64,000 bases of DNA from Candidatus Falkowbacteria bacterium. Lineage in GTDB: Bacteria > Patescibacteriota > Patescibacteriia > Patescibacteriales > WJLG01. Positions within the stretch are counted from its first letter, which is position 1; every line of letters begins with the position of its first letter. The notes below the pieces were generated by a model that had not been told where the DNA came from, ran no database searches, and saw only the letters and a list, made by a program, of their open reading frames with translations. Shown here in pieces: positions 3,562 to 56,469 of this stretch. The position numbers and the translations under genes were made by a program. The stretch covers positions 164,451-228,450 of the forward strand of contig CAVVFV010000010.1 in NCBI GenBank assembly GCA_963747695.1, written 5' to 3'.

Positions 3562-3592
3562 AACTCGTAACTCATAACACTTTTTTTAAAAA

Positions 3593-3675
3593 TCCCCTCT
3601 TGCCTGCCCCGCAAAGCGGAAGTGTGCGTGGGGGAGGGGTGACTCGCGCCGCGAGACGGGGAGGGTCTATTCCCG
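3593..3675. repeat. GC-rich palindromic repeat (CCCCTCT...GGGGAGGGG family)
   Basis: cccctcttgcctgccccgcaaagcggaagtgtgcgtgggggaggggtgactcgcgccgcgagacggggaggg, between the queA start and the nuclease gene end. It stands out in an otherwise AT-leaning sequence. Confidence 0.6.
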
Positions 3676-21054: not shown

Positions 21055-21115
21055 TAATTTTGTTTTTCTTATCCCCCTCCTTATTAATAAATTATATTTC
21101 CCGCCGCTTCCCAAT

Positions 21116-21247
21116 CTTCACACACCCCGTCAGTCCGCGGCGGACTGCCACCCCTCTCTAGAGGGGACTTTTTCCGACGCCGGTTTCTTCGTTGCGAAGT
21201 CCCCTCTGGAGAGGGGTGCCGAGCCCGGCGAGGCGGGGTGTGTGAAG
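21116..21247. repeat. compound GC-rich palindromic element: outer CTTCACACACCCCG/CGGGGTGTGTGAAG arms enclosing two CCCCTCT..GAGAGGGG hairpins
   Basis: Seen directly. 14-bp perfect outer inverted repeat. Inner cccctctctagagggg and cccctctggagagggg. Confidence 0.7.
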
Positions 21248-21272
21248 ATGTTATTTGCGACAAAATGATTTT

Positions 21273-24228: not shown

Positions 24229-24299
24229 AGTTGTTAGTTCAAATTAATTAATTTTGGCTCTGACAGAGTCTCGCGGCTGCAGACTCTGCCAAGGCTGAT

Positions 24300-24346
24300 C
24301 TTCACACACCCCGTCCGCGCGGCGCGGCCACCCCTCTCAAGAGGGG
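24300..24346. repeat. GC-rich palindromic repeat (CTTCACACACCCCG ... CCCCTCTCAAGAGGGG)
   Basis: Seen in sequence. Followed at 24360-24470 by a further GC-rich palindromic stretch (gtcattgcgagcgcctcgcgaagc...). Confidence 0.6.
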
Positions 24347-24481
24347 AATTTTACTTGTCATTGCGAGCGCCTCGCGAAGCAGTCTCGCCCTGACTGCGTC
24401 TGCTCTTGGGCAGGACATATTAGCCGCGAGGCGCGGGTTTGCTTCGTCGCTAATCGCTCCTCGCATATGTGTTATGTTTTT

Positions 24482-34749: not shown

Positions 34750-35970
34750 CTAACTTCTTACTTTGACAAATCCCCGTTTACCTTTCTGAATTAAGACTTC
34801 TTTGTCCGCCACCGCCATTTCCGCTTCCCGGTCGCTGACAGTTTGATTATCAACCTTCACGCCGCCCTGTTCGATCAATCGGCCGGCCTCGCTTTTGGAT
34901 TTGGCCAAGCCGGCTTCAACCAGAAATCAGTTAATTGATAATTTCCGGCTGACATTTTGAAGACTGGGATATCAGCCGGTACTTCTTTATTCTGCACCGT
35001 GGCTTCAAAACCGCGCTGGGCTTTTACCGCTTCATCTTCGCCGCGGACGTTTTGACGATTTCGAAAGCCATCATTTTTTTATACTCCATCGGATTGACCC
35101 CTTTGGCCATCTCGCTTTTGATTTCTTTGATCGCTTCCAGCGGAACCTCGGTCAATAATTCCAAACCCATCGCGATATGATCATCGGAATAAGACATCGC
35201 TTTGCCGTACATATCAGCGGAAGAATCGACAAATTTATGCCATTGCCCTTAGTCTTGGACATGGTCCGGCCGTCGGGCGCGTCCATCATCTTGTTGGCGC
35301 GGACAAATCTTTCTTTGCCCAAATAAGCCTTGGATAATTCACGCCCGGCCAGCATATTGAAAGTCTGGTCAGCGCCGGCAATTTCCATATCGACGTTCAT
35401 CGCCACGCCGTCATAACCTTGCATCAAGGGATAAATAAACTCGTGCAAGCCGATCGGATCGCCGGCCGCCAGACGGCGATCGAACATATCGCGATCAAGC
35501 ATCTGCTGCACGGTCATATGCGACATCAATTTGATCACTTCGTCCAGCTTTAATTGCGAAAGCCATTCATGGTTGCGTTTGAATTGGACGGGATTATCGC
35601 CGCCGAAATCAATCAGCTGCGCGGCTTGTTCTTTCCAACCCTGTAAATTTTCTTCGATCTCGGCAACGGAAAGCATCTTCCGGCCGGATTCCTTATCCGG
35701 GTCGCCAACGCGGGCGGTGTAATCACCGACCAGAAAAATCACTTCATGGCCGAGCTGTTGCAGAATGCGCATCGCCCGGATACCCATCGCGTGCCCGACG
35801 TGCAAAAATTTACCGGTCGGATCATAACCTTGGTAAATGCGCAGCCGCTCGCCCGAATACAATTTTTCCCGGAAGCCGTCAACGGAGGGATAAATCGCCT
35901 CGACGCCGCGGGTTAAGAACTTTTCAATCAATTCTTTGTCGACAATCACTTTGGACATATTTTTTATCAA
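34750..35970 (-). pseudogene. tyrS: tyrosyl-tRNA synthetase broken by three 1-nt frameshifts (or local sequencing errors)
   Basis: N-terminal part 35152..35970 (HIGH-like HVGHAMG, KMSKS-like TMSKTKGN), middle part 35024..35212 (MYGKAMSYSDDH...), C-terminal S4 domain in a third and fourth frame (...NYQLTD / FLVEAGLAKSKSEAGRLIEQGGVKVDNQTV...KGKRGFVKV). Shifts map to AAA/AAAA, TTT/TTTT and GCGG(G)CG sites. Confidence 0.75.
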
Positions 35971-35984
35971 AATTATATTTAGCT

Positions 35985-36752
35985 TTAGTTATTATGGCCG
36001 TTCCGCCTGAACAGGAAAGGCAGCTGGCCGAATATTTCCCGCCAGACCTGGCAATAGAGCCAGAAAATATTTTGCCGGTATTCATCAGGCTGATAGCGAT
36101 AGCATTTCGCCGTCTTGACCATTTCCCCTTCCGCGTCAGCCTGTCTGCCCTCGATCGCGGCCAGCGAGCAGGAACCGGTATTGAAATAATTGATCGCTTT
36201 GAAGCACCAAATCTTACCGGCTTGCCGCTGCAGGATGACGGCCGGTAATGCCGAAAGGAGAACCGTGGCCGGAAGCAGAAAACAAGCTAATTTTTCCGAA
36301 AAGCCCGGACGGCCAACCTTGATCTCCCTGGAAAAATCATGCCCGTAAAGCAGGCGATGATTTTTCTTGATCTCAAAAAGGAATAGATTCCGGCCGACCA
36401 ATTTGGTCATCAATCTGAGCCGGAAGCTGACCGGCTGGAAAGATTCATTCAATTCATCGCGTCCGATAACGATCAGATGAATTCCGCCGAAGCTGTTACT
36501 GGCCAAGAAGATCCGCTGGATAAAGGCATTGAGCCGAGTCGGATGGATGCCGAAAATTTTCTCTTGCGCTCTTACGGCGGCGGCGAAAACTTTTTTGGTA
36601 TCCCGCTTGCCGGGACAAATGATCAAAAGATCGATATCGGAAATGGCCAGATCTTTTTCGCCGACTCCGGACCCTAAAACTTCTACAGAAATGATCTTGT
36701 CTTTCTGATCTCTGACTAACTCTTCAACAAAAAGTTGTGTTCTGTTTTCCAT
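35985..36752 (-). CDS. nucleotidyltransferase-fold protein (hypothetical)
   Basis: VEVLGSGVGEKDLAISDIDLLII = GS...DxD motif. Start trimmed to MENRTQ... because the longer ORF runs across tRNA-Leu. Confidence 0.5.
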   Translation of the reverse strand: MENRTQLFVEELVRDQKDKIISVEVLGSGVGEKDLAISDIDLLIICPGKRDTKKVFAAAVRAQEKIFGIHPTRLNAFIQRIFLASNSFGGIHLIVIGRDELNESFQPVSFRLRLMTKLVGRNLFLFEIKKNHRLLYGHDFSREIKVGRPGFSEKLACFLLPATVLLSALPAVILQRQAGKIWCFKAINYFNTGSCSLAAIEGRQADAEGEMVKTAKCYRYQPDEYRQNIFWLYCQVWREIFGQLPFLFRRNGHNN

Positions 36753-36862
36753 TATTTTATCTGACGGTGCGGATGGAGAGATTTGTCCGCTACGTCGGCC
36801 TTTGACCGCGAGCGGATCCGCGCGCGCCGCATCGCGGCGACGTCGCGGAAACCCGTCTTGTT

Positions 36863-36947
36863 TGGTGCAGACGGTGGGACTTGAACCCACATGAATTGCT
36901 TCACAAGCTCCTAAGGCTTGCGCGTATACCAGTTCCGCCACGTCTGC
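36863..36947 (-). tRNA. tRNA-Leu (anticodon TAG), class II with long variable arm, CCA encoded
   Basis: Minus-strand read GCAGACGTGGCGGAACTGGTATACGCGCAAGCCTTAGGAGCTTGTGAAGCAATTCATGTGGGTTCAAGTCCCACCGTCTGCACCA. Acceptor GCAGACG/CGTCTGC, anticodon loop CTTAGGA, T-arm GTGGGTTCAAGTCCCAC. Confidence 0.85.
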
Positions 36948-44120: not shown

Positions 44121-45254
44121 CTATTTAAATTCTAAATTTGAATCAGCTTTTAATTTGTTCCAAGGCGTGAAAGCTTTTTTCCGGGCCCGGAAATATCCGG
44201 CCGCGGCGATCATCGCCGCGTTATCAGTAGTATACTCCAAAGGCGGGATATGACAAGCCAGGCCCAGTTTGGCCGCCGCATTCTGGAACTCTTCGCGCAA
44301 AACCAGATTGGCGGAAACTCCGCCGGCCAACATCATTGTTTTAATTTTGAATTTTTTGGCCGCCTTAACCGCTTTGCCGACCAGTGTTTCTACCACGGCT
44401 CGTTCAAATTCATGGCAATACTCCGGAACTTTATTTTTCCAATCCTGATCTTTTTGAATTTTATAAAGCAAGGCGGTCTTCAATCCGGAAAAAGAAAAAT
44501 CAAAATTCGGATCATTCAACATCGGACGAGGTAGAATTATCCCCCTCCCGGGGAAGGGTGGCCGCGCCGCGCGGACGGCTTGCCCCGAGCCCTGTCGAGG
44601 GGGGTGTGTGACGGCGTAATCAGCATAGACATTTTTAAATTCTGCCGCTAACTTCGCCACAGCCGGTCCGCCCGGATAGCCAATACCGAGAAGTTTGGCC
44701 GCTTTATCAAATGCTTCGCCAGCCGCGTCATCCCTGGTTTCGCCGATCGTCTGGAATTTGCCATGGCTTTTCATTAATATAAGCATGGTGTGTCCTCCGG
44801 AAACAGTCAGAATCAGCGCCGGGAATTTTATTTTTTCGTTGCCGATAAAATTTGCATAAATATGCCCTTCAATATGATTAACGGCCACCGCCGGAATTTT
44901 CCAGGCATAAGCCAAAGTTCGCGCCGTTTCCACGCCGACCAAAAGCGAAGTAATCAATCCTGGGCCGACCGTTACCGCCAGCGCATCAATTGCCGGCTTC
45001 GTAGGAACGCAATATTTTGCGTTCTTTTTTTGAGCGCAAGATATTGCGCTCCTACCGATCGCCTCGTTAATCACCGGCAAAATATTCAAAATATGCTCCC
45101 GGGCCGCGATTTCCGGGACGACGCCATTATATTTCCGGTGAATTTCGATCTGCGAAGAAACAACATTCGACAAAACCTTGACGGCATCTCCTTTGCCTTC
45201 AATCACGCTGGCAGCGGTCTCATCACAGCTGGTTTCGATGCCCAAAATTATCAT
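44121..45254 (-). CDS. tsaD: tRNA N6-adenosine threonylcarbamoyltransferase TsaD with two in-frame repeat insertions
   Basis: MIILGIETSCDETAASV...GVVPEIAAREH...VTVGPGLITSLLVG...FDFSFSGLKTAL. Extra segments SAISCAQKKNAKYCVPTKP (45004-45051 hairpins) and ADYAVTHPPRQGSGQAVRAARPPFPGRGII (44538-44612 GC-rich repeat) relative to canonical TsaD. Confidence 0.85.
   Translation of the reverse strand: MIILGIETSCDETAASVIEGKGDAVKVLSNVVSSQIEIHRKYNGVVPEIAAREHILNILPVINEAIGRSAISCAQKKNAKYCVPTKPAIDALAVTVGPGLITSLLVGVETARTLAYAWKIPAVAVNHIEGHIYANFIGNEKIKFPALILTVSGGHTMLILMKSHGKFQTIGETRDDAAGEAFDKAAKLLGIGYPGGPAVAKLAAEFKNVYADYAVTHPPRQGSGQAVRAARPPFPGRGIILPRPMLNDPNFDFSFSGLKTALLYKIQKDQDWKNKVPEYCHEFERAVVETLVGKAVKAAKKFKIKTMMLAGGVSANLVLREEFQNAAAKLGLACHIPPLEYTTDNAAMIAAAGYFRARKKAFTPWNKLKADSNLEFK
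44538..44612. repeat. GC-rich palindromic repeat inserted in frame within tsaD
   Basis: ccccctcccggggaagggtggccgcgccgcgcggacggcttgccccgagccctgtcgaggggggtgtgtgac. Same family as the intergenic copies. Confidence 0.7.
45001..45056. repeat. compound small palindrome (GTAGGAACGCAATATTTTGCGTTC...GAGCGCAAGATATTGCGCTCCTAC) inside tsaD
   Basis: Two tandem hairpins inside an outer GTAGGA/TCCTAC inverted repeat. Confidence 0.7.
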
Positions 45255-45382
45255 CTTGACTTTTTTATAATTATTATCTATATTATTACTAACATAAGTT
45301 AAGGAAAAAATCCAGCAATCAGCGGATTTTTATTTTTAAAAATAATTTGTAATTTATAATTTTTAATTTATAATTGATATAT

Positions 45383-45454
45383 GGTCCCTTCGTCTATCGG
45401 TTAGGACACCAGGTTTTCATCCTGGTAAGAGGGGTTCGACTCCCCTAGGGACTA
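45383..45454 (+). tRNA. tRNA-Glu (anticodon TTC), no encoded CCA
   Basis: GGTCCCTTCGTCTATCGGTTAGGACACCAGGTTTTCATCCTGGTAAGAGGGGTTCGACTCCCCTAGGGACTA. Acceptor GGTCCCT/AGGGACT (one GU), anticodon loop TTTTCAT, T-arm GGGGTTCGACTCCCC. Confidence 0.85.
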
Positions 45455-45668
45455 CGTAAAAGAAAACACTCGACCTCAGTCGAGTGTTTTCTTTTACGTA
45501 ATTTCGGGAGTCGAACTGGTTGCGAGCGAGCTATGAGCCGCGAGGGAACGAGCGGCGAATAAGCAAGCGACGCCAGACGCGACCAACGGGAGCGTTTGGC
45601 GGCAACCCCGGACAAAGGAGCGAAGCGCAATCCGGCGCCGAGCGACTGCGACGACTCCCCTAGGGACT
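45455..45668 (+). other. 214-bp GC-rich structured element X, copy 1: 21-bp perfect hairpin plus GC-rich core, ending in a 17-bp copy of the tRNA-Glu 3' end (CGACTCCCCTAGGGACT)
   Basis: Seen directly. ~96% identical to copy 2 (47420-47633). Copy differences include a compensatory hairpin change (gcgcaatccggcgc vs ggcggtttccgcc). Confidence 0.8.
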
Positions 45669-45680
45669 TCGGATAAATAA

Positions 45681-45710
45681 AAAATACTGACTTAACGCCA
45701 GTATTTTTTA
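45681..45710. terminator. bidirectional hairpin terminator (aatactgacttaacgccagtatt with flanking A/T runs)
   Basis: Downstream of cassette gene A1 on the minus strand. Confidence 0.6.
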
Positions 45711-45729
45711 TTTATCCGAATTTTTAAAA

Positions 45730-46392
45730 CTATTTTGCAAATCTAAAAGTTTCCACTATGGCTTTCATCATCGCATCCTCATTGAGTATATTAGATCCCA
45801 TTCCCGCCGTCATTGGATCAAATTCATAAATCAAGTTTCCTTTTTTAACAAAGTAGGAATAAGACCTCCCGTAAATAGAATCTTGGGAATAAAATGACAT
45901 AGCCTCATCGCTTGTAGGAATATCAACTTTGTTTAAATTTTCTGCTTTAGCCCCCTGACTAGAATATGCTTTTATAATCCAATCTTCAAGTGACAGATTA
46001 CTTACATTTTCGGATGCCGATATATTTACTGGGATATCAAAATCTCCACTAGACTTGGGGAAAATTTGCATGGAACCGCCATTTTGCAAAGATTTATCGC
46101 TTGATGTAAACGATACTATCCAATCCTTAGGAGCACTTATTTTATAACCATACTGTTTGTTTTCGTATGTTTGCCAATCGTTTTTATCGATTTTTACCGC
46201 ATCGATTTCAACTACGGTTGGGTGCTGTGAAATCGTCGAGGAAGCGATTGCAGACACCGGAGTAGAAGTGCTTATAGTTTCCTTTTTAACTTCTGGAACA
46301 GCTGAATGAGATTGATATTTAACAAAAATGATCAAACCCGCGACGATAATCAAAACAATGCCTACGCAAATAAAAATAATGTTTTTTTTCAT
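45730..46392 (-). CDS. cassette gene A1: N-terminally membrane-anchored extracytoplasmic protein, paralog of A2
   Basis: 220 aa. TM then Ser/Thr-rich linker. C-terminal ...AMMKAIVETFRFAK shared with A2 (...AMMKAIIETFRFTK). Confidence 0.6.
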   Translation of the reverse strand: MKKNIIFICVGIVLIIVAGLIIFVKYQSHSAVPEVKKETISTSTPVSAIASSTISQHPTVVEIDAVKIDKNDWQTYENKQYGYKISAPKDWIVSFTSSDKSLQNGGSMQIFPKSSGDFDIPVNISASENVSNLSLEDWIIKAYSSQGAKAENLNKVDIPTSDEAMSFYSQDSIYGRSYSYFVKKGNLIYEFDPMTAGMGSNILNEDAMMKAIVETFRFAK

Positions 46393-46481
46393 AGAATGAA
46401 ACTTTTTATTATGATAAATTTATAAATAATTAAAATAGGGGGCGGTGTTTTCTTGAACACCGCCCGATTAATAACCGATCA

Positions 46482-47138
46482 CTATTGGATGTGATAAACA
46501 TTGTAGCCCAGTTTTTGGTTAGCCGACGTAGGCCTGGTAAATGCGTAAAAGTCGGAATACGACACGAAGTGGGTAGAGATATAATTTTCTTTTGGCGGAT
46601 TGTTTGCCGGTGCCGCGACAAAATTACAATCCAGCATGTAAAAACCTTTCACGCCGCCCACTGTTACGTTTCCGTTTAGAAAAAAAGAAGTGTGCTGAGT
46701 AGGGTGATAGGTACCGTCAGCCCAGCGAACATTCCAATACATTTGGATAATGTCAGCTGGGACGCAATATTCGACCATTGTGCTTCTGCCTTGGATCGGC
46801 ATACATGGGGCATCCTGCCACATGCTCATGTTATTCGGATAATATGCCGGAATCTGGACGGCTTGTCCGCTTGCCGTCAAAACGACATGAGACACCCAAC
46901 CCCAACACTGCCCCGTGTTGTGGCCACCAATTTCGGAATTTGCTTTGGCAAGAATCTTACTGTCCCTAGTCGCTTGCGGCAATGCTTCCCACGTCTTCAT
47001 TGCCGTTGATTGCGTGCAACCAGAAGAAAGTGCTGCTATGGGTTGTGCGGATTGTTCTTTACTGCTATTTACGGGATTATTACTGCATCCCAAAACAACA
47101 AACAGAAAAGCAAGTGAAACAAATAGATTGGTTTTCAT
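46482..47138 (-). CDS. cassette gene B1: CHAP-domain (Cys/His amidohydrolase-peptidase-like) lipoprotein
   Basis: Signal plus lipobox ...VLGCSNNPVNSSKEQ. GQCWGWVSHVV (CHAP Cys motif) and ...TQHTSFFLNG (His). Paralog of B2. Confidence 0.6.
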   Translation of the reverse strand: MKTNLFVSLAFLFVVLGCSNNPVNSSKEQSAQPIAALSSGCTQSTAMKTWEALPQATRDSKILAKANSEIGGHNTGQCWGWVSHVVLTASGQAVQIPAYYPNNMSMWQDAPCMPIQGRSTMVEYCVPADIIQMYWNVRWADGTYHPTQHTSFFLNGNVTVGGVKGFYMLDCNFVAAPANNPPKENYISTHFVSYSDFYAFTRPTSANQKLGYNVYHIQ

Positions 47139-47419
47139 GCCAATCCTCCTTTGGTTTAGAATGGTTTAGTTTCCTGACAATAGTAATCAATTTTGAAAAG
47201 AACGAGCGTAAAAGAACCGGAACTAACTGGTATTCGCTTTCATCTCAATCTCCTTGTTAAGATTATACGATTTATTAACTATAATTAATAGGTTAGCAAA
47301 AAAAAAATGGCCTTTGTCAAATTTTTCAATAATTTAAGCCTAAAATTTTACTGGCACCAACCTTTTCCATTTCCGAATATCCTGGATGATGGGGTGTAAA
47401 TTCTCAATACAGTAGTCTA

Positions 47420-47633
47420 CGTAAAAGAAAACACTCGACCTCGGTCGAGTGTTTTCTTTTACGTAATTTCGGGAGTCGAACTGGTTGCGAGCGAGCTATG
47501 AGCCGCGAGGGAACGAGCGGCGAATAAGCGAGCGACGCCAGACGCAACCAACGGGAGCGTTTGGCGGCAACCCCGGACAAAGGAGCGAGGCGGTTTCCGC
47601 CGCCGAGCGACTGCGACGACTCCCCTAGGGACT
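47420..47633 (+). other. structured element X, copy 2
   Basis: cgtaaaagaaaacactcgacctcggtcgagtgttttcttttacgtaatttcgggagtcgaactggttgcgagcg...cgactgcgacgactcccctagggact. Confidence 0.8.
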
Positions 47634-47696: not shown

Positions 47697-48371
47697 CTAT
47701 TTTGTAAACCTAAAAGTTTCAATTATTGCCTTCATCATTGCATACTGATCAAGTAAATCACTATTCAAATCCATGGCACCAAAACCGAAAACATCATCGC
47801 CCTTTTTAACATAAGCACCATAAATCCCGTGTGACAATCCAACAAATGCTCCGTCGCTCGACGGAATGTTTATCTCCATTATTTGCGCGGGGTTATCCTT
47901 CGCTTCCTGGCGATATTTTTTAAGCCAAACTTCTGGTGATGAAGTGTCATGAATAATGCCAATTGCTGTAGGAGCATTAAATTTTTCATCGCTATTTGGC
48001 ATTATCAATAACTCGGTGCCATTTAAAAGATCGAGTTTCCCCGTAAAATTCCATCCCGCCGGAGCACTAATTTCAAAACCATACTTTTCATCCTTGTAAA
48101 TTTGCCAATTATTTTTATCTATTTTCACAGCGTTTATTTCTGCAAAGGTTGGATATGCTAAATTTGGAGATGAAGATGCTATCGTCCCCAAATTTGAGCT
48201 GCTAGCAACATTGTTCTGCTGGTTAATTAAAGAACTCGAAGAAGCAATTTTATTGACCTGATTTGCCCTATTCTTTTGATAACTTTTTTTCAATGGATAC
48301 TCTTTTAAAACAACAACTCCGACTACAAGTAAAATAACTGCCAGCCAAATTAAGATTGTTTTTTTCTTCAT
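47697..48371 (-). CDS. cassette gene A2 (paralog of A1)
   Basis: 224 aa, same architecture and conserved C-terminus. Confidence 0.6.
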   Translation of the reverse strand: MKKKTILIWLAVILLVVGVVVLKEYPLKKSYQKNRANQVNKIASSSSLINQQNNVASSSNLGTIASSSPNLAYPTFAEINAVKIDKNNWQIYKDEKYGFEISAPAGWNFTGKLDLLNGTELLIMPNSDEKFNAPTAIGIIHDTSSPEVWLKKYRQEAKDNPAQIMEINIPSSDGAFVGLSHGIYGAYVKKGDDVFGFGAMDLNSDLLDQYAMMKAIIETFRFTK

Positions 48372-48452
48372 ATAAATATAAAAATTATTTAAATTTAAAA
48401 ATTGGAATGGTGTATTCTGCTAAACACCATTCCAGCTAACTAATTGCTATTG

Positions 48453-49136
48453 TCACTGAATCTGATATACCGAAAAACCCAAAAGTGGATTATTCACGGT
48501 GGCGGTGGTAAATAATTTGAAATCCGCGTAGGTCACTTTATGAACACTAACCGTGTACTTCGGGCTAAAATTACAATCAATCCACATCATGCAATTTTTA
48601 GTGTCGTCCGTATAGCCACTTGTATTACTTACAACAATTGCAGTGTGTGGGCCTTGGGGACCCAAAGATCCGTTGGCTAACCTTGGTGTCCACCAAAGCT
48701 GAAATATTTGGCCAGGCGCAACCCAAGGAAGTGATGAAGCATTGCTATAAAGCTTTACGACTTGGCTGTTAAAGCAATCTGCACTTAACCATGAATAATA
48801 GTTGGGGGTGCCGCCATGATCACAAGTATTGGCACCGATCGTGATGCCGCTAACCGGCAAAACAACATACGATTGCACCCAAGGCTTACACTCAACGGGC
48901 GGAATGTAGTTACTATAGTTGTTACCATTCATTGCTTGCGCAAAGGCCAAAAGCTTCGCATTTTTTTGCGGTTGCGACAGTAAATTCCAGGCCTGCAAGG
49001 TAGGCGTTATCGTACAAGTGGTGGCTACTGCTGCAAGTGGTTGAACCAACTGTTCTTTACTGCTATTCACGGGATTATTACTGCATCCCAAAATTGCAGC
49101 TGACAAGACAAGAGCAAAACAAAGATATTTTTTCAT
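48453..49136 (-). CDS. cassette gene B2: CHAP-domain lipoprotein (paralog of B1)
   Basis: Identical lipobox region ILGCSNNPVNSSKEQ. CKPWVQSYVV and GPHTAIVVSN motifs. Confidence 0.6.
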   Translation of the reverse strand: MKKYLCFALVLSAAILGCSNNPVNSSKEQLVQPLAAVATTCTITPTLQAWNLLSQPQKNAKLLAFAQAMNGNNYSNYIPPVECKPWVQSYVVLPVSGITIGANTCDHGGTPNYYSWLSADCFNSQVVKLYSNASSLPWVAPGQIFQLWWTPRLANGSLGPQGPHTAIVVSNTSGYTDDTKNCMMWIDCNFSPKYTVSVHKVTYADFKLFTTATVNNPLLGFSVYQIQ

Positions 49137-49476
49137 ATCCAGCCCTTTGGTTGCTGAGTTGATGGTTTAATGATCTGACAATAGTAATCAATTTTTAAAA
49201 GAACAAATACTGAAAGAACATTAGCTTGAATCCATTTTTTCGCCTCCCTGTTAGAATTATACGGTTTATTAATGACTATTAACAGAGTAGCAAAAAAAAA
49301 ATGACATTCGTCAAATTTTTCAATAATTTAAGCCTAAAATTTCACTTATATAAATATCATCCATTTCTTAATATCCGCGATAATAGGATGTAAATTCTCA
49401 ATACAGTAGTCTACTGAAAATAAAATACCGCCACGCAAATTCGCGGGCGGTATAAATTATTCTGCTAAAAAAGAGC

Positions 49477-54177: not shown

Positions 54178-54822
54178 TTTGAGGCTGGCTTTTCATCCCG
54201 CCCCAGTTTTTATATAAAATAATTTCACTATCCGCTATAATTATTTTTTGATAATTTATCGTCTACCCCGTTTACCAACAAAACTGGCGGCGGGATTATA
54301 CGATCCCTTTCTCGCCTTCCCTCGCCCCTAGCGAGGGGCGAGGTCGGCTCAAAGGGCTTGCGTATAAAAAAGGGGAGAAGCCGATCATCGATCAGCCCTC
54401 CCCTGCTCAAAATGCGAAATCCTGAAAAGGAGTTGCGGAGCTCCCCGCGGAAATAAACCACCGTAAAAAGAGGTCTCGAACCTCATCAAGAGTCCGTTAC
54501 CAGACTCAGGGATTCCATGGTGATCCTTCGCATTTTGAAAAAAATATTTTTTCCTCTTTAATATAGAGAGGGAAGTTGTTGTCCTTCCCTCCCTCGCCCT
54601 TTACTGGCAGGAAGCCTGAAACGTACTGAGGAAAAAAATCGTCCCAGGCACTTTTACCCTATCGCAGGAAAAACAAACAGTCAATCCTCTTGTCTTAAAG
54701 ATAAATTATTGATAGATTATATTTTAGGAATTGAATGAAAAAGAGAATATAAAATCTTAGATCGCCTTTGGCGGGCTTTGCCTCGCCGAAGTCCCGCCTT
54801 GGCAGGACGAAGGCGGGTATCG

Positions 54823-54849
54823 TATATCGGTATTACCCCAGCTTTCTCC
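54823..54849 (+). other. partial duplicate of the tRNA-Gly 5' half (GCGGGTATCGTATATCGGTATTACCCC)
   Basis: Compare with the tRNA 5' end GCGGGTATCGTATAGCGGTTATTATGCC, 60 nt downstream. Confidence 0.6.
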
Positions 54850-54907: not shown

Positions 54908-54982
54908 CGCGGGTATCGTATAGCGGTTATTATGCCAGTTTTCCAAACTGGTCATAGGGGTTCGACTCCCCTTACCCGCTCC
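54908..54982 (+). tRNA. tRNA-Gly (anticodon TCC), CCA encoded
   Basis: GCGGGTATCGTATAGCGGTTATTATGCCAGTTTTCCAAACTGGTCATAGGGGTTCGACTCCCCTTACCCGCTCCA. Acceptor GCGGGTA/TACCCGC, anticodon stem CCAGT/ACTGG with loop TTTCCAA. Confidence 0.85.
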
Positions 54983-56469
54983 AAAGAGAAACAAGACCTA
55001 TTTTCCAGAAATTTTTCACGCGCTTCGCGAAGCGAAGCGTAAGGTTTAATGGGCACAAATTGAATTTTTTTATCTTTCAAAAACAGGTTCGAGCCGGAAA
55101 TTTTTACGGCTGAAGATTTTTTATCCAAAAGTGATGATGAAATGGCGTTTTCGCCTATATTTACTGCGTCTTTTATCCATTCCCGCATCGGTTCGAGCCA
55201 AACTATAGACCCTCTCTTAAAATCGACGATTTTCTCCTCCAGCGACTTCTTGCGAGAGAGAAGACTCGCCTTCTCCGTGAGGTATGCCTCGCGCTCTATG
55301 TCTTGGTCTAAATATGCGGTAAGAAGGCGCTGGAGCTTCGCCTCGATAGCTATAACTTCTTCTCTCATCTCATGACTTACAGTTGCTGATAATTGGGCGG
55401 CCTCTTTTGCATCTTTGTCGGTCATTTTCAAGAGTTCTGCCGCCCAATCGGAAGGCATAGCATATTCTTTTAGGACATCAGTCAATTGCGCGATCAATTC
55501 CTTGTCTTTCATGTACGGTTGTGAGCAAGCCCCTTTCTTTTTGGTGCAGTGATAGTAAGTATATTCATGGGTCTTGCCGGATACCTGCCTTTTTATCTTA
55601 TGCTCAGCCGTAATGGAACAGCCGCACTCGCCGCACCTAAATAGCCCGCATAGCGGCTGAGGTTCGTTTTTAATCTTGTCGTGCGGTTTGCCGCGATCGG
55701 CAATCACAGCCTGCACGCGGTCAAATAATTTTTTGGAAATGATTGACTCGTGTGTGCCTTCGTAGACTTCGCCGGCATATTGGAACAGGCCGCAATAAAA
55801 AATGTCGGATAATATGCGCGATATTCTGTCCCGCTTGAATATGCTTCCGGTGTCGGCGCGCACGCCTTTCTCCGCGAAGAACGCGGAGATATCTTCAAGC
55901 CGCGAGTTGCCCTTGGCGTAAAGTTCAAAGGCGGCAATCACCACCTTCGCCGTTTTTCTCTCCACGATAATGCGTTTCGTCCGAACGTCGTTCAAGTATC
56001 CGAGCGGGGCGCGCGAAGGATATTCGCCTCTCTTAACTTTTTCGTGTAGTCCGCGTTTAGTGTTAGTGCTCAAGTCGATGATGAACTGGTTAGCCATGCC
56101 AAACTCCATGCTCATAACCAGCGTGTTGTCGGTCGAGCGATAGCTCCGGTCATGGGTTTGGATATGTTGGATAGTTCCCCGCTGTAAAAACCAGCTGATT
56201 TGTCCGCCGTCGATCGGATTGCGGGCGAGACGATCAAGTTTCCAGCAAACAATGCCTTGCGCCTCGCCTTTTTCAAGGCGCGAAAGCATCTCGCCAAATA
56301 CAGGGCGTCCAGGTCTCTTGGCTGATTGTTTTTCGATAAACTCCTCAACGATATTCAACCCTTCGGTCTTGGCCAGCGCCCGCAAGACGGCCAGCTGATC
56401 GTCAATAGAACGGACTTGCTTGTCTTCAACGTCAGTCGATTTGCGGGCGTAGAGGAAATAATTTGGCAT
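54952..56469 (-). CDS. large serine recombinase (resolvase/invertase N-terminal domain + recombinase domain + zinc-ribbon + coiled-coil)
   Basis: ...FLYARKSTDVEDKQVRSIDDQLAVLRAL (catalytic Ser region), ...GIVCWKLDRLARN, recombinase-domain motifs, CGECGCSITAEHK...YYHCTKK zinc ribbon. C-terminal 58 aa are encoded by IR-L and the last 9 aa by the tRNA-Gly 3' end. Confidence 0.85.
   Translation of the reverse strand: MPNYFLYARKSTDVEDKQVRSIDDQLAVLRALAKTEGLNIVEEFIEKQSAKRPGRPVFGEMLSRLEKGEAQGIVCWKLDRLARNPIDGGQISWFLQRGTIQHIQTHDRSYRSTDNTLVMSMEFGMANQFIIDLSTNTKRGLHEKVKRGEYPSRAPLGYLNDVRTKRIIVERKTAKVVIAAFELYAKGNSRLEDISAFFAEKGVRADTGSIFKRDRISRILSDIFYCGLFQYAGEVYEGTHESIISKKLFDRVQAVIADRGKPHDKIKNEPQPLCGLFRCGECGCSITAEHKIKRQVSGKTHEYTYYHCTKKKGACSQPYMKDKELIAQLTDVLKEYAMPSDWAAELLKMTDKDAKEAAQLSATVSHEMREEVIAIEAKLQRLLTAYLDQDIEREAYLTEKASLLSRKKSLEEKIVDFKRGSIVWLEPMREWIKDAVNIGENAISSSLLDKKSSAVKISGSNLFLKDKKIQFVPIKPYASLREAREKFLENRSCFSLERVRGVEPL
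54978..55152. repeat. IR-L: 175-bp perfect inverted repeat (partner at 56921-57094). Starts within the last 5 nt of tRNA-Gly.
   Basis: Verified by reverse-complementing block by block. Every 10-mer matched. Confidence 0.95.

What the first reader, a model, noticed from the sequence alone, without database searches (positions are those of the whole stretch)
45455..45668. X element: a GC-rich, apparently structured 214-nt element that mimics and duplicates the tRNA-Glu 3' end
X begins exactly at the tRNA-Glu discriminator base. It opens with a perfect 21-bp-stem hairpin (ACGTAAAAGAAAACACTCGAC-ctca-GTCGAGTGTTTTCTTTTACGT). A GC-rich core follows, closed by the long-range pairing GGGAGTCG...CGACTCCC. 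It ends with CGACTCCCCTAGGGACT, which is identical to the tRNA 3' end. Between the two copies one internal hairpin differs by compensatory changes (gcgc-aatccg-gcgc vs ggcgg-ttt-ccgcc), implying selection on RNA/DNA secondary structure. Candidate roles are a recombination site (attC-like), a small ncRNA, or a tRNA-linked insertion signal.
Basis: seen in the sequence. Interest (0 to 1): 0.7.

Follow-up and report, generated by a model that had tools for sequence, protein, structure and literature searches.

The report
Structured GC-rich module beside tRNA-Glu
The 214-base "X element" is a tRNA terminator hairpin followed by a real, previously uncatalogued, about 165-base folded non-coding element that ends in a copy of the tRNA-Glu 3' end. 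It recurs as a boundary module of gene-cassette arrays next to tRNA-Glu in a few related Patescibacteria, and its function is still unknown.

Summary
X occurs twice (45454-45668 and 47419-47633; 207/215 bases identical). Each copy has a perfect 21-bp hairpin, a GC-rich core and an exact 17-nt copy of the tRNA-Glu 3' end.

X is composite:
- The hairpin is the bidirectional intrinsic terminator that follows tRNA-Glu. Related genomes without X have one too.
- The core plus tRNA-end copy (45506-45668) belongs to a small family. I found it in four other Patescibacteria contigs, always after tRNA-Glu or a conserved 29-nt "M-box", then a terminator-like hairpin.

Helices P2-P5 of the core are supported by covariation: 18 of 44 pairs in an unfitted alignment, 22 of 46 in a model-fitted one. 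Only the tRNA-sense strand folds better than shuffles. The closing helix that uses the tRNA-end copy never covaries.

There is no Rfam match, no conserved ORF, and no phage, plasmid or viral match. No integron or tyrosine integrase was found among about 46 ORFs scanned in the window.

Copies within a genome are about 95% identical. The cassettes they flank are ancient paralogues (36% amino-acid identity). So X is recently copied or homogenised.

Best reading: a locus-specific, recombining non-coding module encoding a structured RNA, or possibly a folded single-stranded DNA site. It is not an integron attC site. Function and transcription remain unshown.

The parts
45383..45454 (+). tRNA-Glu(UUC), no encoded CCA. 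Its last 17 nt before the discriminator (45437-45453) are the repeated sequence. Promoter-like TTGTAA-16-TATAAT lies at 45347-45374.
   Evidence: ARAGORN; Rfam tRNA 57 bits; promoter scan
45454..45499 (+). Hairpin 1: 21-bp perfect stem (A-tract, CACTCGAC-CTCA-GTCGAGTG, U-tract). This is a bidirectional intrinsic terminator of tRNA-Glu and not specific to X.
   Evidence: Analogous A-tract/GC-stem/T-tract hairpins follow tRNA-Glu in loci without X (L020, L018, L026). The hairpin sequence differs between genomes but is identical within one genome.
45506..45651 (+). X1 core: GC-rich (66%) structured element with helices P1 (5' strand), P2, P3, P4 and P5. Conserved single-stranded blocks are GGAGTCGAAC, GCGAGCGAG, CCnGGACAARRGAG and CCGAGCGA.
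   Evidence: Fold; CM hit 190 bits; covariation
45652..45668 (+). Direct repeat: exact 17-nt copy of the tRNA-Glu 3' end. Its first 8 nt form the 3' strand of P1.
45669..45719 (.). Bidirectional terminator hairpin shared by X1 (+ strand) and cassette 1 (- strand).
   Evidence: Sequence; homologous terminator follows the cassette in L004, where there is no X
45730..47138 (-). Cassette 1: 220-aa secreted/TM protein (45730-46392) and 218-aa lipoprotein (46482-47138). The lipoprotein has invariant Cys/His/Asp-Cys-Asn residues.
   Evidence: ORFs; no Pfam match; family and invariant residues
47392..47420 (+). M-box: GGGTGTAAATTCTCAATACAGTAGTCTAC. It occupies the place of the tRNA 3' end in front of X2. 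Just upstream, ATCCTGGATGATGGGGT resembles tRNA-Glu ATCCTGGTAAGAGGGGT.
   Evidence: the same motif occurs 5 times in L018 and once in L026
47419..47464 (+). Hairpin 2, identical to hairpin 1 except one loop base.
47471..47633 (+). X2 core plus 17-nt direct repeat (47617-47633).
   Evidence: CM hit 197 bits; fold
47697..49136 (-). Cassette 2: paralogous pair of 224 aa and 227 aa. Its lipoprotein is 36% identical to the cassette 1 lipoprotein.
49386..49414 (+). Second M-box (1 mismatch). It is followed directly by the terminator of the next gene. This junction carries no X core.

Best explanation
X is two things joined together. The first 46 nt are the bidirectional intrinsic terminator of tRNA-Glu. 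The rest (window 45506-45668 and 47471-47633) is one member of a clade-restricted family of about 165-nt structured non-coding elements.

The structure: helices P2-P5 form a compact multi-branched fold with purine-rich conserved junctions. It is closed by P1, in which an inverted copy of the tRNA-Glu T arm (GGGAGUCG) pairs with the start of a direct copy of the tRNA 3' end (CGACUCCC...). The structured strand is the tRNA-sense strand.

The module (hairpin + core + tRNA-end copy) is one of two kinds of block stacked behind tRNA-Glu. The other kind is terminator + genes + promoter + M-box. Every block ends in a tRNA-3'-end-like ...CTAC followed by a terminator hairpin. The blocks occur in different orders and numbers in different genomes.

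I infer that the array grows, shrinks and is homogenised by recombination at these tRNA-end-like junctions. I also infer that the core is kept by selection because it makes a structured RNA, read in the tRNA direction and ending at the next terminator.

Shown:
- the family exists
- its position rule
- covariation in P2-P5
- strand asymmetry of folding
- presence or absence at equivalent junctions
- concerted evolution within genomes

Inferred:
- transcription
- the recombination mechanism
- any role of the tRNA-end copy
For: Family: homologues in L018 (three copies), L017, L021 and L026. CM scores run from 45 to 183 bits.

Structure:
- An unfitted MAFFT/RNAalifold alignment of 5 copies gives 44 pairs, 18 with compensatory double changes.
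- The CM-fitted 7-copy alignment gives 46 pairs, 90% paired, 22 with double changes. None of 500 shuffles reach this, and slid controls give 2-6.
- P2 is GGUUGC/GCAACC in most copies and AGGCAG/CUGCCU in L017.
- L026 folded on its own recovers the same P1-P5 architecture. L017 recovers P1 and the P3 and P4 hairpins, but not P2.

Strand: the + strand core gives -73.1 kcal/mol, z = -3.7. The - strand gives -62.9, z = -1.2. AT skew is +0.39 over the core, so unpaired regions are purine-rich.

Not coding: no reading frame stays open across copies.

Position rule: every copy follows tRNA-Glu or an M-box, then a terminator-like hairpin, in the same orientation.

Module behaviour:
- tRNA-Glu is followed directly by a cassette-type terminator in L018 and L026, and by a plain terminator in L020. 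X is precisely absent at all three.
- An M-box without X occurs at window 49386 and in L018.

Concerted evolution: X copies are 95-96% identical within a genome and 54-87% between genomes. The two lipoproteins are 36% identical, and each groups with orthologues from other genomes.
Against: - No promoter is evident between the upstream terminator and the core (and inspection). That hairpin looks like an efficient terminator, so transcription of the core is unproven.
- Wobble-pair counts do not favour either strand.
- Some of the 'covariation' may be wholesale swapping of GC-rich hairpin modules rather than stepwise compensation. P3, P4 and P5 differ in length and sequence between genomes. L021 lacks P3 and P4. 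L026 carries an extra 31-nt hairpin inside the tRNA-end copy.
- P1 and the tRNA-end copy are not kept in all copies.
- Only 9 copies (6 full-length or nearly so, 3 reduced or truncated) from 5 genomes are known, all from one locus.
- No recombinase is linked to the array.
Confidence: 0.45

Rival explanations
1. X is a DNA-level attachment module of integrase-less integrative islets. The 17-nt repeat would be an attR-type copy of the tRNA-Glu 3' end left by site-specific integration. The GC-rich core would be the arm next to the crossover site, acting as protein-binding sites or as a folded single strand whose P1 stem re-creates the duplex of the tRNA T-arm region, as in CTX-phage attP or integron attC. 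No RNA product is needed.
For: - L026 has the classic island layout: tRNA-Glu, cassette, X core, tRNA-end copy.
- In L018 the same end module closes a block with different cargo, DUF5680 plus two radical-SAM genes.
- X is precisely present or absent between repeats.
- The repeat decays in older copies, as a scar would (L017, L018_b, L021).
- The AGCG/GAGCG motif occurs 7 times against 1.6 expected, which could be binding sites.
- P1 is identical to the duplex of the tRNA gene segment.
- Strand asymmetry is also expected for a folded single-stranded DNA site.
Against: - No tyrosine integrase or IntI is encoded in the 64-kb window or in any related locus (and the gene tables).
- The only recombinase is a large serine recombinase at tRNA-Gly, 9 kb away. 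That enzyme type does not use long identity blocks.
- No phage, plasmid or viral contig carries X, the M-box or the repeat.
- Arm-type sites would not produce compensatory changes in four helices.
- In the window the block order is A-B-C-B-C, which needs extra deletions under a simple tandem-integration model.
Confidence: 0.27
2. X is a selfish GC-rich palindromic repeat (MITE, REP or BOX-like, or like mitochondrial GC clusters), built from hairpin modules with 8-bp terminal inverted repeats. It would have no host function.
For: - The genome does carry dispersed GC-rich hairpin repeats: CACACCCCG...CCACCCCTCTCNAGAGGGGAAT at 3590, 21120, 21200 and 24300, and in frame inside tsaD at 44530.
- Small GC hairpins are inserted into tRNA-Glu fragments and into the X repeat of L026.
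- X is modular: P3 and P4 are absent in L021.
- GGGAGTCG...CGACTCCC looks like terminal inverted repeats.
Against: - X is not dispersed. A CM search of about 235 kb (the window plus 19 loci) finds it only in the tRNA-Glu array.
- There is no target-site duplication. The left flank (M-box end) differs from the right repeat in X2.
- Single-stranded junction sequences are conserved across genomes whose TsaD is 73-79% identical to the window's.
- The other strand does not fold better than shuffles, unlike a true palindrome.
Confidence: 0.13
3. X is a decayed tRNA-Glu paralogue or intron-bearing tRNA remnant. A second tRNA-Glu gene would have had its 5' two-thirds replaced by inserted GC-rich sequence, and it would now be drifting.
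For: - The locus is littered with tRNA-Glu fragments: 5' fragments with GC hairpin insertions flanking a GIY-YIG gene in L017, L018, L020, L021 and L022, and a 3' fragment with an anticodon-loop insertion after tRNA-Glu(CUC) in L022.
- Group I introns are common in Patescibacteria tRNA genes (PMC13011429).
Against: - No tRNA, tmRNA or intron model matches the core (ARAGORN; Rfam at E up to 10).
- X has no acceptor 5' strand, D arm or anticodon arm.
- A drifting pseudogene would not keep four helices by compensatory change, nor stay 85-88% identical between genomes while the adjacent hairpin is completely replaced.
- The introns reported in PMC13011429 lie in the anticodon loop, not the T loop.
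Confidence: 0.07
4. X is an integron-type attC site in a cluster of attC sites lacking an integrase.
For: - A repeated structured element separates gene cassettes.
- Copies within one array are near-identical while the cassettes differ, as with Vibrio VCRs.
Against: - There is no RYYYAAC/GTTRRRY pair at the ends. GTCGAAC has a purine at position 4, and there is no GTT site at the 3' end.
- The ends pair for only 8 bp, and the fold is multi-branched, not a single bulged hairpin.
- No IntI is present.
- The cassettes carry their own promoters and terminators and are paralogues. The same cassette occurs elsewhere without X (L004).
Confidence: 0.03

Closest known systems
tRNA-gene-targeted genomic islands (attL/attR direct repeats of a tRNA 3' end; tandem island arrays)
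   Same: There is an exact 17-nt direct repeat of the tRNA 3' end. Blocks are stacked behind one tRNA gene. X is present or absent at the same junction in related genomes. The tRNA stays intact.
   Different: No integrase lies in or near the array. The repeat-bearing unit can be only 214 nt with no cargo. The sequence next to the repeat is a covarying structured element rather than an A+T-rich arm with protein sites. A second, diverged tRNA-end-like motif (the M-box) also marks boundaries.
Integron attC sites / CTX-phage folded attP (single-stranded DNA recombination sites)
   Same: A structured repeat sits between cassettes. Structure is conserved more than sequence. Folding is strand-asymmetric. 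The closing stem reproduces the duplex of the presumed target, the tRNA T-arm segment.
   Different: X lacks the attC core sites and the single-hairpin architecture. There is no IntI. The cassettes are self-sufficient transcription units. There is no evidence of a single-stranded intermediate.
tRNA-linked non-coding RNAs (for example 3' external transcribed spacer RNAs such as 3'ETS-leuZ; tRNA-like 3' ends such as mascRNA or viral TLS). This comparison is from my own knowledge and was not tested here.
   Same: X lies directly downstream of a tRNA on the same strand. It carries tRNA-derived sequence at one end. It is small and structured.
   Different: A strong terminator separates X from the tRNA. 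The tRNA-derived part is only the 3' strand, with no acceptor 5' strand and no T stem, so it cannot form a tRNA-like fold. No Rfam family matches.
Modular GC-rich or palindromic bacterial repeats (BOX, REP/BIME, Rickettsia palindromic elements, mitochondrial GC clusters). This comparison is from my own knowledge.
   Same: X is a GC-rich island in an AT-rich intergenic region. It has a modular hairpin make-up, and hairpin modules vary between copies. The same genome has a genuinely dispersed GC-rich repeat family.
   Different: X is confined to one locus, has conserved non-palindromic junctions, and folds on one strand only.

Membership tests
Any Rfam 15 RNA family | Covariance-model score at or above the gathering threshold, or at least a suggestive E-value | tested here: not met
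   (gathering threshold, whole window) found only three tRNAs. One search (E up to 10, 45300-45800) gave no match over the core; the few that clip its edges centre on the terminator hairpins or the tRNA-end copy.
Intrinsic (Rho-independent) terminator (applies to bases 45454-45499 only) | GC-rich stem-loop immediately followed by a U-tract, placed just after a gene's 3' end | tested here: met
   CACTCGAC-CTCA-GTCGAGTG is followed by TTTTCTTTT, starting at the tRNA discriminator. Equivalent hairpins follow tRNA-Glu in L020, L018 and L026 without X. The consensus scan missed it because the A-tract/T-tract extends the stem to 21 bp.
Structured non-coding RNA | Secondary structure conserved through compensatory base changes | tested here: met
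   18 of 44 pairs in an unfitted alignment. 22 of 46 pairs in the fitted alignment, with 0 of 500 shuffles reaching this and slid controls giving 2-6. P1 has no covariation.
Structured non-coding RNA | One strand folds significantly better than shuffled sequence | tested here: met
   + strand z = -3.7 to -4.5; - strand z = -1.2.
Structured non-coding RNA | Own promoter, or demonstrated transcript with defined ends | tested here: inconclusive
   No sigma-70-like site between the hairpin and the core (and inspection of all copies). A terminator follows the element. No expression data are available with these tools.
Integron attC site | Inverse core sites R'' (RYYYAAC) and R' (GTTRRRY) at the two ends, pairing in a single long imperfect hairpin with extrahelical bases | tested here: not met
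   The 5' GTCGAAC deviates from the consensus and there is no GTTRRRY at the 3' end. The ends pair for only 8 bp. The fold is multi-branched.
Integron attC site | Integron integrase (IntI) and attI nearby, with promoterless cassettes | tested here: not met
   Pfam on about 46 window ORFs found no tyrosine recombinase. The cassettes have their own promoter regions and terminators.
tRNA-targeted integrative island (att sites) | Direct repeat of the tRNA 3' end bounding the inserted DNA, with the tRNA left intact | tested here: met
   17/17 nt at 45437, 45652 and 47617. In L026 the repeats bracket a cassette plus X.
tRNA-targeted integrative island (att sites) | Integrase gene inside the island, usually next to one att site | tested here: not met
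   None in the array or in the related loci. The only recombinase is a large serine recombinase at 54952-56469, abutting tRNA-Gly.
tRNA-targeted integrative island (att sites) | Empty site in relatives | tested here: met
   tRNA-Glu is followed directly by a terminator in L020, L018 and L026.
MITE / REP-like dispersed repeat | Many dispersed copies, terminal inverted repeats, target-site duplication | tested here: not met
   Copies occur only at the tRNA-Glu locus in about 235 kb searched. The inverted ends are 8 bp. The flanks of X2 are not duplicated. The whole genome was not available.
tRNA, tmRNA or tRNA intron | Cloverleaf or tRNA-like domain, or a group I/II intron core | tested here: not met
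   ARAGORN found nothing over X. No Rfam intron or tmRNA hit.
Small protein gene | Reading frame kept open, with conservative substitutions across homologues | tested here: not met
   The 47-codon frame is open in the window and in L018_a, but is interrupted by a stop in L026 and is not kept in L017. None of the ORFs is in the protein collection.

The most novel reading that the evidence does not exclude
X could be the recognition module of a tRNA-anchored, integron-like cassette system in Patescibacteria. A folded single strand (or an RNA) would carry both a copy and an inverted copy of the tRNA-Glu T-arm/acceptor segment. Its closing stem would re-create the target duplex. This would let a host or trans-acting recombinase capture, stack and shuffle self-contained gene blocks behind tRNA-Glu without an element-encoded integrase.
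Probability: 0.08. Interest if true: 0.85.

Novelty: new variant of a known kind. Interest (0 to 1): 0.55.

Why it matters
If the core is a functional RNA, it is a new RNA class from a phylum with tiny genomes, where little non-coding sequence is expected to be retained.

If it acts in recombination, it would show how ultra-small Patescibacteria genomes diversify surface and secreted protein cassettes next to a tRNA gene without carrying an integrase. It would also be a rare case of a structured element that embeds both a copy and the complement of its tRNA target.

Either way, the covariance model built here gives a direct handle for a phylum-wide search and for metatranscriptome checks.

Tried and rejected
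DNA scans that found nothing relevant:
- A 20-mer of the core against genome contigs gave two chance hits, in Planctomycetaceae and Nitrospirae coding sequence.
- The gapped pattern GGGAGTCG...CGACTCCCCTAGGGA against metagenome contigs gave nothing.
- Six viral-contig scans with core, M-box and repeat patterns gave nothing or chance hits.
- blastn against phages and plasmids gave nothing.

Protein-based attempts to find more copies:
- Exact look-up of ORFs lying on X: none is in the collection.
- A concatenated six-frame translation of three X copies used as a protein query gave no scoring hit. It was probably swamped by low-complexity candidates.

Ideas rejected:
- Protein-coding.
- attC site, tRNA or tmRNA, and group I intron in the T loop (no model match, no 5' exon).
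- Retroviral-type primer-binding site: the - strand lacks the TGG needed for the CCA end.
- DGR template/variable repeat: the element is not in a gene.
- CsrA-type GGA decoy: the motifs are not conserved in L017.
- Strand assignment from G-U versus A-C counts was uninformative.

Full report
**The observation.** tRNA-Glu(UUC) lies at 45383-45454 (ARAGORN; Rfam). From its discriminator base runs a perfect 21-bp hairpin (45454-45499), then AATTTC, then a 66% G+C stretch (45506-45651). It ends in CGACTCCCCTAGGGACT (45652-45668), which is identical to the tRNA's last 17 nt before the discriminator. That 17-mer occurs three times in the window, against 0.08 expected.

A second copy of the whole unit lies at 47419-47633, and 207 of 215 bases are identical. 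The minimum-energy fold closes the core with GGGAGUCG/CGACUCCC. The core alone is more stable than all 200 shuffles (-73.1 kcal/mol, z = -3.7; for copy 2). So the description is correct.

Two refinements:
- GGGAGTCGAAC is the exact reverse complement of 11 nt of the tRNA's own T arm.
- The 'compensatory' hairpin involves one true C:G to G:C swap plus loop changes and a register shift.

**Surroundings.** The window comes from a Patescibacteria (CPR) genome; the closest TsaD proteins are annotated as Patescibacteria MAGs. Behind tRNA-Glu the order is:
- X1, then a bidirectional terminator
- cassette 1 on the - strand: a 220-aa secreted protein and a 218-aa lipoprotein
- the cassette's promoter region, ending in a 29-nt motif GGGTGTAAATTCTCAATACAGTAGTCTAC (the 'M-box')
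- X2, then a terminator
- cassette 2, a paralogous pair
- a second M-box, then the terminator of the next gene, with no X

The two lipoproteins are only 36% identical, and each groups with orthologues from other genomes. The cassette duplication is therefore old. The X copies are 96% identical with sharp boundaries, so they are young or homogenised.

**The hairpin is a terminator.** Its inner stem CACTCGAC/GTCGAGTG is followed by UUUUCUUUU and preceded by the complementary A-tract. That is the form of a bidirectional intrinsic terminator. tRNA-Glu genes of related genomes that lack X are followed at the same distance by analogous hairpins (L020; L018; L026). Where X is present, the hairpin sequence differs between genomes but is identical within a genome. 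It should not be counted as part of a single 214-nt structured element.

**Homologues.** Exact-pattern scans of the genome, metagenome and viral collections gave only chance matches. Fetching the tRNA-Glu neighbourhood of the closest TsaD relatives succeeded:
- L018 (GCA_028716485.1) has three copies. One is intact, with a 16/17 repeat. One has a 15-nt deletion that removes the repeat. One is truncated after about 35 nt.
- L017 has a divergent copy directly after tRNA-Glu and its hairpin.
- L021 has a mini version lacking P3, P4 and the repeat.
- L026 has a copy at the far end of a single cassette. Its repeat is split by a 31-nt GC hairpin.
- L020, L022 and the cassette locus L004 have none.

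A covariance model (R1) finds these copies and nothing else in about 235 kb.

Every copy is in the tRNA orientation. Every copy is preceded by tRNA-Glu or an M-box, then a terminator-like hairpin.

**Structure.** An unfitted MAFFT/RNAalifold alignment of five copies predicts 44 pairs, and 18 have compensatory double changes. With four copies it was 11 of 46. On the model-fitted seven-copy alignment, 90% of cells pair and 22 of 46 pairs have double changes. No shuffle of 500 reaches this, and sliding the partners gives 2-6.

- P2 is fully rewritten in L017: GGUUGC/GCAACC becomes AGGCAG/CUGCCU.
- P3 shows GCCGC/GCGGC, UUCGC/GCGAA and GCGCC/GGCGC.
- The 3-bp helix outside P3 shows GCU/AGC, GAC/GUC and GAU/AUC.
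- L026 folded alone gives the same P1-P5 architecture. L017 folded alone gives P1, P3 and P4 but pairs the P2 region differently.
- P1, the helix that uses the tRNA-end copy, never covaries. It is invariant in good copies and broken in reduced ones.

The opposite strand of the core folds no better than shuffles (z = -1.2). The + strand is purine-rich in its unpaired parts (AT skew +0.39). Wobble counts are uninformative.

No reading frame survives across copies. Rfam has no match, nor do the phage and plasmid collections.

One caveat: P3-P5 differ so much in length and sequence that part of the signal may be replacement of whole hairpin modules. The genome demonstrably hosts small GC-rich hairpin insertions.

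**Array logic.** All block boundaries fall right after a tRNA-3'-end-like ...CTAC that is followed by a terminator hairpin. Define three blocks:
- A = tRNA-Glu
- B = hairpin + core + repeat
- C = terminator + genes + promoter + M-box

| Genome | Block order |
|---|---|
| Window | A-B-C-B-C |
| L026 | A-C-B |
| L018 | A-C'-B-C-B*-C''-C-C-B* |
| L017 | A-B |
| L021 | A-B(mini) |
| L020 | A |

(* = reduced or truncated B copy; C', C'' = C-type blocks with other cargo.) In L018, C' carries DUF5680 and two radical-SAM genes. Blocks B and C therefore behave as independent units that can sit in any order behind the tRNA. This is what successive recombination at a regenerated tRNA-end site would give.

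Within-genome copies of B are 95-96% identical and between-genome copies are 54-87%. That is concerted evolution.

No integrase is encoded in the array or in related loci. Pfam on about 46 window ORFs finds only a large serine recombinase at 54952-56469, abutting tRNA-Gly.

**Interpretation.** The best-supported reading (confidence 0.45) is a clade-restricted, recombining non-coding module. Its core is maintained by selection on the structure of the tRNA-sense strand, most simply as an RNA. The tRNA-end copy and its inverted partner are inherited from recombination at tRNA-Glu and now form the closing stem.

The main rival (0.27) is that the element works purely as DNA, as the att module of integrase-less islets, perhaps as a folded single strand. 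A selfish palindromic repeat (0.13), a decayed tRNA paralogue (0.07) and an attC site (0.03) fit less well.

Transcription, the recombinase and any role for tRNA mimicry are all untested.

**Novelty and interest.** This is not a member of any catalogued RNA family or of the integron system. It resembles tRNA-anchored island arrays, but with a covarying structured element in place of an ordinary arm and with no integrase. I rate it a new variant of a known kind, with interest 0.55.

Noticed in passing
window 47392-47420 and 49386-49414; L018 near 1027, 2647, 4434, 5045 and 6986; L026 near 3249: A 29-nt motif, GGGTGTAAATTCTCAATACAGTAGTCTAC ('M-box'), is identical between the window and L018 (whose TsaD is about 77% identical to the window's). 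It marks the promoter-distal end of every block in the tRNA-Glu arrays, with or without X. The bases just upstream (ATCCTGGATGATGGGGT) resemble the anticodon-stem to T-stem part of tRNA-Glu. Its function is unknown.
   Followed up: partly
L017 830-1370, L018 9500-9830, L020 3740-4050, L021 5380-5920, L022 540-980, L026 4976-5236 (absent from the window): In relatives, a small GIY-YIG endonuclease gene sits just upstream of tRNA-Glu. In L017, L018, L020, L021 and L022 it is flanked by partial copies of the tRNA-Glu 5' part, and these copies carry GC-rich hairpin insertions in the D-loop or anticodon-loop region. It looks like a free-standing homing endonuclease cassette targeting this tRNA gene.
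   Followed up: partly
window 54952-56469 (-), tRNA-Gly 54909-54983, and about 54815-54840: A 505-aa large serine recombinase (Resolvase + Recombinase + Zn_ribbon_recom; weak XisF/Ccr-like hits) has a 3' end that overlaps the 3' end of tRNA-Gly. A partial copy of the tRNA-Gly 5' part and a GC-rich stretch lie just upstream. This is probably an integrated element at tRNA-Gly.
   Followed up: partly
window 3590-3670, 21115-21250 (inverted pair), 24295-24355, and 44530-44615 inside tsaD; also L017 1510-1570 and L020 3570-3620: A dispersed GC-rich repeat family (CACACACCCCG...CCACCCCTCTCNAGAGGGGAAT) occurs in intergenic regions. One copy is apparently in frame inside the tsaD coding sequence. TsaD is 377 aa here, against about 340-350 aa in many relatives.
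   Followed up: partly
window 45730-47138 and 47697-49136; alignment A1: The cassettes encode an uncharacterised lipoprotein family (12 database hits). It has invariant Cys, His and Asp-Cys-Asn residues, which suggests a papain-like or NlpC-type hydrolase, plus a secreted partner. There is no Pfam, NCBIfam or PDB match. A 43-nt stretch encoding the signal peptide and lipobox is almost identical between paralogues that are otherwise 36% identical. Tiny upstream ORFs (6 and 4 codons) with good ribosome-binding sites precede both lipoprotein genes.
   Followed up: partly
window 35152-36947: Between tRNA-Leu (36863-36947, -) and the TyrRS catalytic-domain ORF (35152-35970, only 272 aa) lies about 0.9 kb that relatives lack. 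There the gap is 60-120 nt and TyrRS is 403-404 aa. The extra sequence includes a GC-rich stretch right after tRNA-Leu and a 318-aa ORF with no family match. TyrRS may be truncated or rearranged here.
   Followed up: no
L022 260-540: One relative, encoding the same TsaD protein as L021, has tRNA-Glu(CUC) at this position. It is followed by a terminator and then by a partial tRNA-Glu 3' fragment that carries a 28-nt GC-rich insertion in the anticodon loop.
   Followed up: no
protein P0002, loci L012-L015: The closest cassette-lipoprotein homologue is labelled 'Candidatus Nanoarchaeia archaeon' at NCBI (GCA_035506055.1). The protein itself has a bacterial-type lipoprotein signal (lipobox), so the bin is probably misclassified.
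   Followed up: no
window 45506-45668: AGCG occurs 7 times (GAGCG 5 times) in the core, against 1.6 expected. In the fold, many of these fall in symmetric GA/GA or GA/AA internal loops of P3 and P5, which are possible tandem sheared G-A pairs.
   Followed up: partly
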